Positions 24,001-25,667 of a DNA stretch of 64,000 nucleotides are shown one piece after another. The stretch is from the NCBI RefSeq assembly GCF_044324785.1, contig NZ_CP172127.1; one strand, given 5' to 3'. How positions within the stretch are numbered: position 1 is the first letter of the stretch; each line of letters opens with the position of its first letter. Made by a program: the position numbers. The DNA is from Escherichia coli (GTDB lineage Bacteria > Pseudomonadota > Gammaproteobacteria > Enterobacterales > Enterobacteriaceae).

Positions 24001-25667
24001 AAAGACGACTAAGGCTGATAGAGATAAGAGACCGATTCTGTAATGGAAAGGCCTCAGAGTTGGCTCGTCGAATAGAAAGGGAACCATCATACGTTTCCAG
24101 AATGCTGTATCCGGAAGGAAAAAGCGGAAAAAAACGCATTGCTGACGATATGATGGAACTAATTGAAAAATCTTTTAATCTCCCACGCGGATGGATGGAC
24201 ATGCTTGCAGATGGTAAAGCTGGAGCTACAGACCATCTTGAGTTTGCGGGTAACGTTCGTGCGGGTTTTGTTCCGGTAATTGGTGAAGCCGTTTTGGGAG
24301 TTGATGGCTCAGTGGATATGATTGAATTCAGATCCGGTTGGTTAAGCATCTACAGCGGCGATAAAGATGCTTACGGTCTGAAGGTTAAGGGTGACAGCAT
24401 GTGGCCAAGGATTCAGTCAGGAGAATATGTTGTTATTGAACCAAATACGCCAGTACATCCAGGTGATGAAGTCTTTGTAAGGACCAAAGACGGTCACAAC
24501 ATGATAAAGATCATGAACAAAACAAGAGACGGTGATTATCAGTTTAGTAGCATAAACAGTGATCACCGCCCAATCACTCTTCCTGTTGAAGAAGTTGATA
24601 AAATGCATTTTGTTTCAGCTATTGTGAAACACACCAGGTACGTAGACCAGGACGATCTGCCAAAAGTTTGAGGATAAAGCAGCAAGTGTTTATACCCGGC
24701 ATAGTAGTCGCTGTTGTAATCATCTGCTTCATATGGGCAAAGTTATCTCCTGTAAGCTCTAAGCATACAGCTGAACTCATGAAGAAGAAGCATCTTATAC
24801 ATGAGGCAGAATCGATAATTAAAAAGTTCAAAGGCATGTCATACGACGACATGTCATCAGAGCAGATTGCTATGTATAAATGCGCCATTGAGCGTCTTGA
24901 CTACTTAAACGGACTCAAACCCAAACACACCCCAGTAGAATCAAAATTGCCGCAATGGCCAAGCAATCCAAATAGCTTCTGACATCTCCTTTCAGCCCGC
25001 AAAGCGGGCTTTTTTATATCAATCCAAAAAATTAATTACCTGAAAATTCAAGCAGGTAAACTCTTACATCAATTTTATTTACCTGCAGGTATAGACAACT
25101 GTTTTACCTGTAGGTATATTTTAGGCCATCAGCAGGACGCACTGACCACCATGAAGGTGATGCTCTTAAAAATTAAGCCCTGAAGAAGGGCAGCATTCAA
25201 AGCAGAAGGCTTTGGTGTGTGTGATACGAAACGAAGCATTGGCCGGAAGTGCGAATCCGGATTAGCTGCCAATGTGCCATTGCGTGGTGTTTTCGTTCAG
25301 GACTACGACTCCCACACACAACCAAAGCTAACTGACAGGAGAATCCAGATGGATGCACAAACACGCCGCCGCGAACGTCGCGCAGAGAAACAGGCTCAAT
25401 GGAAAGCAGCAAACCCCCTGTTGGTTGGGGTAAGTGCAAAACCAGTTAACCGCCCTATTCTCTCGCTGAATCGCAAACCGAAATCACGAGTAGAAAGCGC
25501 ACTGAATCCGATAGACCTTACGGTGCTGGCTGAATACCACGAACAGATTGAAAGCAACCTGCAACGTATTGAGCGCAAGAATCAGCGCACATGGTACAGC
25601 AAGCCTGGCGAACGCGGCATAACATGCAGAGGACGCCAGAAAATTAAAGGTAAATCTATATCACTTA

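What the first reader, a model, noticed from the sequence alone, without database searches (positions are those of the whole stretch)
24668..25016. Small membrane protein translationally coupled to cI
The ORF start overlaps the cI stop and the gene is followed by a clean terminator, so it should be co-expressed with the repressor in lysogens (the position rexAB occupies in lambda). A ~100 aa single-pass membrane protein here is a good candidate for a lysogen-expressed superinfection-exclusion or abortive-infection factor.
Basis: inference. Interest (0 to 1): 0.5.

Follow-up and report, generated by a model that had tools for sequence, protein, structure and literature searches.

The report
Small membrane gene in repressor operon
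A real, conserved 98-residue single-pass membrane protein gene sits right behind the prophage repressor gene cI, in the slot where phage lambda keeps rexAB. It belongs to an unstudied protein family whose relatives fill the sieA exclusion slot of P22-like phages, so it is a good but untested candidate for a factor that protects lysogens from other phages.

Summary
The true start is 24686, not the TTG at 24668. That codon is ATG in 25 of 31 alleles and GTG in 6, including the window. It lies 14 nt after the cI stop, with a GAGGA ribosome-binding site in the gap. There is therefore no stop/start overlap.

The gene ends at 24982. A strong, invariant intrinsic terminator follows at 24994-25016, before OL/pL and N. 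This is the layout of lambda cI-rexAB-timm.

The 98-residue product has one N-terminal transmembrane helix and a K/R-rich helical hairpin predicted to face the cytoplasm. It matches only PHROG 10450 (function unknown). There is no hit in Pfam, NCBIfam, PADLOC or PDB, and no informative fold match.

The immunity module is that of phage mEp043. All 51 E. coli genomes and 24 viral contigs with this cI keep an intact copy.

In two diverged modules cI is 84-85% identical and the gene is still directly behind it, but only 41-42% identical.

A sister clade (29-37% identical) always lies convergent to ejection gene 16 in P22-like phages. That is the sieA slot, and the gene is often just downstream of an Mnt/Arc or S24 repressor there. 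It is not homologous to SieA.

Lysogen expression is well supported by architecture and comparison. An exclusion or abortive-infection role is plausible but untested.

The parts
23912..23965 (.). OR operators: 14-bp palindromes TTACC-N4-GGTAA at 23912-23925 and 23952-23965, between cro and cI
   Evidence: Pattern search gave 5 matches in the window against 1.1 expected, four of them flanking the cI-ORF unit
23951..23978 (+). pRM-like promoter (TTTACC-16-TAGAAT). The -10 hexamer ends 6 nt before the cI ATG, which implies a leaderless cI mRNA as in lambda
   Evidence: Consensus scan. The leaderless reading is an inference from the spacing and from established lambda biology
23985..24671 (+). cI repressor (228 aa, S24 peptidase type), 100% identical to mEp043 cI
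24671..24675 (+). GAGGA Shine-Dalgarno sequence for the small gene, 10 nt before its start; it overlaps the last base of the cI stop
   Evidence: Read from the sequence. A GAGGA lies at the end of cI in L010 too
24686..24982 (+). The gene: 98 codons plus stop, with a GTG start here (ATG in most alleles). Residues 2-20 form the transmembrane helix. Residues 21-47 continue that helix, 58-76 form a second helix, and the C-terminal tail carries an invariant W-P
24668..24685 (+). In-frame upstream extension from the TTG that overlaps the cI stop.
24994..25016 (+). Intrinsic terminator of the cI operon, the analogue of lambda timm
   Evidence: L009 has an equivalent hairpin; L010 has none
25036..25059 (.). 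Palindrome TTACCTG-N10-CAGGTAA. It has the operator half-sites one helical turn further apart and is conserved in diverged modules
   Evidence: Its function is not tested
25079..25120 (+). OL operators (25079-25092 and 25104-25117) overlapping the pL-like promoter TAGACA-17-TATATT
   Evidence: mEp043 carries a 'putative PL' annotation at this place
25349..25672 (+). Lambda-type antiterminator N, the first gene of the pL operon

Best explanation
The gene at 24686-24982 is the second cistron of the prophage repressor operon. In a lysogen, transcripts from pRM run through cI and this gene and stop at the terminator at 24994-25016. The same should hold for pRE transcripts during establishment of lysogeny. 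The gene is translated from its own GAGGA ribosome-binding site.

Its 98-residue product inserts in the inner membrane through an uncharged N-terminal helix. A K/R-rich helical hairpin is left on the cytoplasmic side (N-out, C-in).

It is a lysogenic-conversion (accessory) protein. The most likely role is protection of the lysogen against superinfecting phages by acting at the inner membrane. The leading mechanism is interference, from the cytoplasmic face, with the channel or host membrane protein through which incoming phage DNA enters. That would make it a SieA-like or DicB-like outcome produced by an unrelated protein.

What is shown: the gene is real, it is under purifying selection, it has one hydrophobic helix, it is linked to cI, and it is followed by a terminator.
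What is inferred: co-transcription with cI, the membrane topology, and the defence function with its mechanism.
For: A real gene:
- 31 of 31 alleles are intact, and the amino-acid changes are nearly all conservative.
- pN/pS is about 0.1-0.2, similar to cI.
- Homologues at 29-42% identity share 10 invariant residues.
- The AlphaFold2 model has a mean pLDDT of 79.

Operon structure:
- The gap after cI is 14 nt, with no promoter-like or terminator-like site in it.
- A terminator follows the gene, and OL/pL/N lie downstream.

Linkage to cI across deep divergence:
- The gene is directly behind cI in L009 and L010.
- There cI is 84-85% and Cro 89-92% identical, while this protein is 41-42% identical.
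- Silent sites are saturated in all three genes. dN is 0.5-0.6 for this gene against about 0.1 for cI and cro. This fast evolution inside a conserved module is what arms-race proteins typically show.

A second lysogeny slot:
- The sister clade lies convergent to and immediately next to gene 16 in 24 of 24 viral contigs and in all 12 other P22-like loci examined that retain gene 16. In the one degraded prophage (L011) gene 16 itself is missing.
- This is the position of sieA in P22. No sieA homologue was found within 3.5 kb in any of the 48 viral loci.
- In several loci the gene is directly downstream of an Mnt/Arc or an S24 repressor gene.

Topology: in all 17 family members there is no charged residue before the helix and 2-6 K/R in the 15 residues after the hydrophobic N-terminal region.

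Precedent from the literature:
- The cI-N interval is a known hotspot that holds rexAB and bstA, and cI is among the most highly transcribed prophage genes (PMC8585504).
Against: - There is no experimental or transcript evidence for expression, topology or any phenotype.
- There is no similarity to any known defence protein: PADLOC gave 0 hits, Pfam and NCBIfam gave nothing significant, and the comparison with SieA gave probability 0.2%.
- Fold searches return only family members or generic helical hairpins.
- Many proteins that block DNA entry expose their functional domain to the periplasm, whereas this one is predicted to face the cytoplasm.
- Genes in the cI-N slot and between genes 16 and 9 are not all defence genes.
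- Rapid divergence could also reflect relaxed constraint.
- L010 lacks a recognisable terminator after the gene.
Confidence: 0.45

Rival explanations
1. Abortive-infection trigger or effector. The membrane-anchored protein senses a product of the infecting phage on the cytoplasmic side, oligomerises and collapses the membrane potential or causes premature lysis. The infected cell dies and the lysogen population is spared. This would be a one-protein counterpart of RexA/RexB or SieB.
For: - Same operon slot as rexAB and bstA, both abortive-infection systems.
- The soluble domain is predicted to face the cytoplasm, which suits sensing of intracellular phage products.
- A single transmembrane helix continued by a long helix could oligomerise.
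- The sequence evolves fast.
Against: - No similarity to RexB, SieB or any PADLOC abortive-infection model.
- One 19-residue helix with no polar face gives no sign of a pore.
- Nothing in the locus looks like a sensor partner or a self-immunity element.
Confidence: 0.17
2. Modulator of the phage's own lysis-lysogeny decision or prophage stability. Made together with cI from pRE and pRM, it would act at the membrane on a host factor such as the FtsH protease, which degrades CII and CIII, or on ClpXP or Lon. This would be analogous to the reported effects of RexA and RexB on the lambda switch.
For: - Co-transcription with cI from both establishment and maintenance promoters follows from the architecture.
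- A cytoplasm-facing, membrane-tethered helical domain is well placed to reach the membrane-bound protease FtsH.
- In P22-like phages the relatives often follow the immI repressor Mnt or an S24 repressor.
Against: - In loci such as L025 and L013 the relative stands alone between the tailspike gene and gene 16, with no regulator nearby.
- A regulator of a conserved host target would not be expected to evolve five to six times faster than cI and Cro.
- One viral contig carries both paralogues, which fits different specificities better than one regulatory job.
Confidence: 0.13
3. A host-fitness or virulence conversion factor unrelated to phages, in the manner of lambda bor and lom. Examples would be a small membrane protein that modulates a transporter, an envelope stress response or a sensor kinase.
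For: - Small single-pass inner-membrane proteins in enterobacteria commonly act as modulators of larger membrane proteins (general knowledge).
- The family is frequent in clinical E. coli, Shigella, Salmonella and Citrobacter genomes.
- The literature notes that bstA was first linked to virulence phenotypes.
Against: - The family is found only in prophage lysogeny slots, never in a chromosomal non-phage context in the loci examined.
- Its exact replacement of sieA next to the ejection genes favours a phage-directed role.
Confidence: 0.15
4. A chance ORF or a decaying remnant with no function. The conserved sequence would really be the 3' untranslated region and terminator of cI.
For: - RefSeq's pipeline leaves it unannotated in most of the 51 E. 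coli genomes.
- It has no database domain.
Against: - It is intact in 31 of 31 alleles, with an excess of synonymous changes.
- The start codon varies only between ATG and GTG.
- Homologues at 29-42% identity have the same length and architecture and share invariant residues, and they occur in two different genomic settings.
- The structure prediction is confident.
Confidence: 0.03

Closest known systems
Lambda rexA-rexB (abortive-infection genes in the cI operon)
   Same: Same place and the same inferred expression logic. The gene lies immediately downstream of cI on the same strand, inside the immunity region between cI and OL/pL, and ends at a terminator before pL. A membrane protein is involved in both.
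   Different: Rex is a two-protein system: cytoplasmic RexA plus four-helix RexB (established knowledge). Here there is one 98-residue protein with one helix, no sequence or profile similarity, and no second gene.
P22 SieA (inner-membrane superinfection-exclusion protein, PMC10883804)
   Same: The sister clade of this family occupies the sieA slot exactly: convergent to gene 16, between genes 16 and 9, with no sieA present. Both are small inner-membrane proteins of temperate enterobacterial phages made in the lysogen.
   Different: There is no homology (hhalign probability 0.2%), and SieA falls in a different PHROG (7745 against 10450). SieA has 3-4 transmembrane helices, 162-164 residues or more, and the motif FxRYPxEAxxFNK. 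This protein has one helix and lacks the motif. The window copy sits behind cI, not beside gene 16.
BstA (prophage abortive-infection protein downstream of cI, PMC8585504)
   Same: It shares the conserved position downstream of the prophage repressor, presumably uses the repressor's promoter, and has its own Rho-independent terminator.
   Different: The paper describes BstA as localising to sites of phage DNA replication, not as a membrane protein. There is no sequence similarity, and no aba-like self-immunity element was looked for or seen here.
Small prophage or host proteins that block inner-membrane DNA-entry receptors from the cytoplasm (DicB acting on ManYZ, SgrT on PtsG; bioRxiv 10.1101/708461, title and abstract seen)
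   Same: A small protein encoded in a prophage immunity region, with a cytoplasm-side action at the inner membrane as the proposed way of stopping phage DNA entry.
   Different: DicB is soluble and works through MinC. There is no sequence relation. The analogy is functional and hypothetical only.
PHROG 10450 / UniProt A0A243V2I5-type uncharacterised proteins
   Same: The window protein is a full-length member (E = 1.4e-54; AFDB match at 98% identity).
   Different: Nothing differs; the family has no assigned function.

Membership tests
PHROG 10450 (uncharacterised phage protein family) | Full-length match to the 98-position profile | tested here: met
   E = 1.4e-54; residues 7-104 of the TTG-started product match profile positions 1-98
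Lambda Rex system | Location in the cI transcript between cI and OL/pL, closed by a terminator | tested here: met
   Order cI, gene, terminator, OL/pL, N
Lambda Rex system | Two genes: a RexA-like cytoplasmic sensor plus a multi-pass RexB-like membrane protein | tested here: not met
   Only one ORF fits between cI and the terminator. It has one hydrophobic segment. No PADLOC or Pfam match
P22 SieA | Sequence homology to SieA types A-C, including the motif FxRYPxEAxxFNK | tested here: not met
   hhalign probability 0.2%. SieA hits PHROG 7745 and this protein hits PHROG 10450. The motif is absent from the family alignment
P22 SieA | Three or four transmembrane helices | tested here: not met
   A single hydrophobic segment in all 17 members. 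The model has one long N-terminal helix and one further helix
P22 SieA | Position between genes 16 and 9 of a P22-like prophage | tested here: inconclusive
   Met by the sister clade. Not met by the window gene, which follows cI. In strain PA45B, whose cI-ORF-terminator stretch is 100% identical to the window's, the slot beside gene 16 holds an unrelated 122-aa protein
P22 SieA | Blocks DNA injection by P22-like phages | not testable with these tools
   Needs plating, K+ efflux or DNA-entry assays
BstA | Homology to BstA | tested here: inconclusive
   No PADLOC hit at E up to 1 and no Pfam domain. Whether PADLOC holds a BstA model was not checked, and no direct BstA comparison was run. Only the position downstream of cI is shared
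Translationally coupled gene pair (overlapping stop and start) | The start codon of the downstream gene overlaps or abuts the stop codon of the upstream gene | tested here: not met
   The supported start, 24686, lies 14 nt after the cI stop and has its own GAGGA site. In L009 and L010 the gap is 3-4 nt
Intrinsic (Rho-independent) terminator | G+C-rich hairpin followed by a U run | tested here: met
   7-bp stem with 6 G-C pairs, T6 run, -12.6 kcal/mol, z = -3.0; invariant in 31 alleles
Single-pass inner-membrane protein, N-out/C-in | One hydrophobic helix with the positive-charge bias on the C-terminal side | tested here: met
   Kyte-Doolittle maximum 2.57. 0 charged residues before the helix and 2-6 K/R after the hydrophobic region in 17 of 17 members. 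This is a prediction only; the real topology is untested

The most novel reading that the evidence does not exclude
This is the founding, unstudied member of a new family of one-helix, cytoplasm-facing inner-membrane proteins that temperate enterobacterial phages use to exclude or abort competing phages. The family has been placed independently in two lysogen-expressed slots: behind cI in one lambdoid immunity lineage, and in place of sieA next to the DNA-ejection genes of P22-like phages. The two paralogues have different specificities, since a single prophage can carry both. If it blocks the ejection-protein conduit from the cytoplasmic side, it would offer a second, structurally simple handle on how P22-like phages get DNA across the inner membrane.
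Probability: 0.4. Interest if true: 0.55.

Novelty: new variant of a known kind. Interest (0 to 1): 0.4.

Why it matters
The interval between cI and N is a recognised hotspot for genes that prophages express to defend their hosts, such as rexAB and bstA. This gene adds an uncharacterised family to that hotspot. The family is seen in E. coli, Shigella, Salmonella, Citrobacter and Morganella, and one paralogue occurs on about a thousand or more contigs. The link made here to the sieA slot of P22-like phages gives a concrete hypothesis that is cheap to test. If the protein excludes phages, it would matter for phage-therapy host range in clinical E. coli and Salmonella, and for understanding DNA entry across the inner membrane. 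If it does not, it is simply one more prophage accessory gene of unknown function. There is also an annotation point: RefSeq leaves the gene uncalled in most genomes, and one GenBank record uses the wrong start.

Tried and rejected
- The TTG start at 24668, and with it stop/start overlap coupling, was rejected on the ATG/GTG polymorphism at 24686, the N-termini of homologues, the profile boundaries and the Shine-Dalgarno position.
- Homology to SieA was rejected.
- Pfam, NCBIfam, PADLOC and PDB sequence searches gave no significant hit.
- Rfam found no RNA family in 22000-27000.
- A chance-ORF explanation was rejected on conservation and substitution pattern.
- The promoter scan found no promoter-like site in the 3' part of cI directly upstream of the gene (nearest + strand site 24294-24322). 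A scan upstream of a stand-alone P22-clade copy (L025) found no convincing promoter either, so how that copy is transcribed stays open.
- Literature searches for mEp043, for the protein accessions, and for cI-linked membrane exclusion proteins found no study of this protein.
- An AlphaFold pseudo-dimer was considered but not run, because the tool returns no inter-chain contacts or PAE.
- HK97 gp15 was not retrieved for a direct comparison. The exhaustive phmmer search found no relatives beyond this small family.

Full report
**Setting**

The window carries a mosaic temperate prophage.
- On the minus strand from about 700 to 12200 lie P22-type virion and DNA-ejection genes. The gp20 homologue hits PHROG 917, the gp7 homologue PHROG 598, and there are coat and portal genes.
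- From 20871 to 23876 lie a DnaB-like helicase gene, a replication-initiator gene, and genes called cII and cro in mEp043.
- On the plus strand follow cI (23985-24671), the gene under study, a lambda-type N (25349-25672), an Erf recombinase gene and an integrase gene.
- The prophage abuts tRNA-Thr at 30446-30521.
- The cI-to-pL stretch (23985-25120) is 99.5% identical to coliphage mEp043, a lambda-like siphovirus. Positions 23985-25020 are 100% identical to E. coli strain PA45B.
- Fourteen-base operators TTACC-N4-GGTAA flank the cI unit: two between cro and cI, and two overlapping a pL-like promoter.
- The gene therefore lies inside the immunity region between cI and OL/pL. This is where lambda has rexA-rexB-timm (established knowledge; also stated in PMC8585504).

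**The observation**

An ORF in the stated frame ends at 24982. A 7-bp hairpin with 6 G-C pairs and a T6 run follows at 24994-25016. It folds at -12.6 kcal/mol, z = -3.0, and is invariant in 31 alleles.

Five lines of evidence place the start at 24686.
- That codon is ATG in 25 alleles and GTG in 6, including the window.
- Every homologue begins M-[YFW]-I-[PS] at that aligned position.
- The PHROG 10450 profile covers residues 7-104 of the longer product.
- GAGGA lies 10 nt upstream, while nothing precedes the TTG.
- Two RefSeq annotations use this start.

So the gene begins 14 nt after the cI stop. It is close-packed and almost certainly co-transcribed, because the scan found no promoter-like or terminator-like site in between. 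It is not coupled by overlap. A promoter-like site whose -10 hexamer ends 6 nt before the cI ATG suggests a leaderless cI message, as in lambda (inference). The small gene would then be the better-initiated cistron on that RNA.

**Is it a real gene?**

Yes.
- Across the window, 24 viral contigs and 6 other records, all 31 copies are intact. They encode 11 protein variants that differ mostly by conservative changes.
- For the most diverged pairs pN/pS is 0.1-0.2, similar to cI.
- An exhaustive phmmer search of 1.84 billion representatives found a small family at 33-43% identity. A profile search added about 20 more clusters, all named 'hypothetical protein'.
- The 17-sequence alignment has 10 invariant residues: K34, I38, E40, A41, M56, C66, A67, L71, W91 and P92.
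- AlphaFold2 gives a mean pLDDT of 79. The model has one long helix (5-47), a second helix (58-76) and a C-terminal tail.

**The protein**

- Residues 2-20 are strongly hydrophobic, with a Kyte-Doolittle maximum of 2.57.
- In all 17 members no charged residue precedes this helix, and 2-6 Lys/Arg fall within the 15 residues after the hydrophobic N-terminal region. By the positive-inside rule the soluble hairpin faces the cytoplasm. This is a prediction only.
- There is no significant match in Pfam, NCBIfam, PADLOC or PDB sequences.
- Fold searches return only family members from E. coli, Salmonella and Morganella, or generic hairpins.

**Conservation beside cI**

- All 51 of 5426 complete E. 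coli genomes that have this cI have the whole cI-gene-terminator block. No more distant copy of the block exists in that collection.
- All 24 viral contigs with the mEp043-type copy of the gene have the cognate cI directly upstream.
- The flanking replication and pL-operon genes differ between these prophages. The virion type differs too: lambda-like in mEp043 and P22-like here. So the gene travels as part of the immunity module.
- In two metagenomic modules (L009, L010) cI is 84-85% and Cro 89-92% identical to the window's. The homologue is again directly behind cI (3-4 nt gap) but only 41-42% identical.
- Nucleotide identity runs at roughly 70-88% through most of cro and cI, falls to 42-63% across the gene, and recovers to 63-82% at OL/pL.
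- Silent sites are saturated in all three genes. dN is 0.5-0.6 for the gene against about 0.1 for cI and cro.
- The gene has thus stayed with this cI lineage over a deep divergence while changing five to six times faster at the protein level.

**A second home**

The more distant clade (29-37% identity) is found in P22-like phages and prophages. Examples are phage N7, metagenomic and genomic loci and 24 viral contigs.
- In every such locus that retains gene 16, the gene is convergent to and immediately next to gene 16, the last DNA-ejection gene. It lies between gene 16 and the tailspike gene.
- In one degraded prophage (L011) gene 16 itself is missing, and the gene sits at the prophage end beside the other ejection genes.
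- The P22 map shows that this is exactly where sieA lies. The SieA paper states that sieA homologues always sit between genes 16 and 9 (PMC10883804).
- None of the 48 viral loci has a sieA homologue within 3.5 kb.
- In several loci the gene is directly downstream, on the same strand, of an Mnt/Arc repressor (L019, L020) or an S24 repressor (L018). In N7 and L021 it follows Mnt after one or two small genes.
- The family is not related to SieA: hhalign probability is 0.2%, the PHROGs differ, there is one helix rather than three or four, and the SieA motif is absent.
- One viral contig carries both paralogues (L032 and L059).

**Interpretation**

- The well-supported part is that this is a genuine accessory gene placed where it will be made in the lysogen. 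It encodes a small single-pass inner-membrane protein.
- The function is inferred.
- Two different lysogen-expressed slots are each known to hold exclusion or abortive-infection genes. The family replaces sieA exactly in one of them, evolves fast, and can occur as two paralogues in one prophage. Together these make a role against superinfecting phages the most likely reading; I put defence of any kind at about 0.6.
- Within that, I favour interference with DNA entry at the inner membrane from the cytoplasmic side (0.45). An abortive-infection mechanism comes next (0.17).
- Alternatives are a role in the phage's own lysogeny control (0.13) or a host-fitness function (0.15). A non-functional ORF is essentially excluded (0.03).

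**Novelty and verdict**

- The kind of thing is familiar: an accessory gene in the cI operon, probably for exclusion.
- The protein family is not. It has no characterised member and no paper, and its link to the sieA slot has not, as far as the searched literature shows, been made.
- It is a sound candidate for a simple experiment rather than a surprise.
Its functional guess remains plausible but unproven.

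Noticed in passing
window 25665-26168 (- strand): A 166-aa ORF (PHROG 1244, function unknown) with a Cys-rich, zinc-ribbon-like C-terminus. It lies antisense just after N inside the pL operon. A related prophage (EC1515) and P22 carry sieB at this place, so this is a second candidate lysogen-expressed accessory gene.
   Followed up: partly
window 25036-25059: Palindrome TTACCTG-N10-CAGGTAA between the terminator and OL. It has the same half-sites as the 14-bp operators, set one helical turn further apart. The half-sites are conserved and the spacer varies in the diverged modules L009 and L010. It could be an extra repressor-binding or looping site.
   Followed up: partly
L032 and L059 (IMG/VR contig UViG_2563366933_000009): A single 38-kb P22-like viral contig carries both paralogues of the family, one behind cI and one beside gene 16.
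   Followed up: partly
window 1-30521: The prophage is a mosaic. It combines P22-type virion and ejection genes, the mEp043 immunity module (mEp043 itself is a lambda-like siphovirus), a lambda-type N, Erf, and an integrase next to tRNA-Thr(CGT) at 30446-30521. ORFs the size of proA, proB and phoE lie to the right.
   Followed up: partly
window 24686-24982; 51 RefSeq E. coli genomes: In 39 of the 40 listed hits the RefSeq annotation leaves this conserved gene uncalled; only strain K56-43-un lists it. GenBank PV340537 calls it from the TTG that overlaps cI, which is probably the wrong start.
   Followed up: yes
window 26410-26658 (+): An 82-aa protein that matches PHROG 14587, annotated as an anti-restriction protein, in the early-left operon.
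   Followed up: no
window 15393-15548 (-): Two tRNA genes, Thr(TGT) and Asn(GTT), lie inside the prophage.
   Followed up: no
window 24207-24230 (cI codons about 75-82): Nearly all non-synonymous differences between cI alleles cluster in this short stretch, presumably the inter-domain linker. The same stretch is the least conserved part of cI in L009 and L010.
   Followed up: no
L016 (E. coli PA45B 2553000-2566000): In the strain whose cI-ORF-terminator stretch is 100% identical to the window's, the tailspike end of the prophage abuts intS, tRNA-Arg and yfdC, whereas the integrase end in the window abuts thrW. This suggests a rearrangement between two prophage sites. The slot beside gene 16 there holds an unrelated 122-aa protein (PHROG 2651), and a ClpP-like gene follows mnt.
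   Followed up: no
L027 (phage HK97) 17910-18814: HK97 also has two uncharacterised genes (gp49 and gp48) between cI and N on the cI strand. This illustrates how commonly the slot is filled with unknown genes.
   Followed up: no
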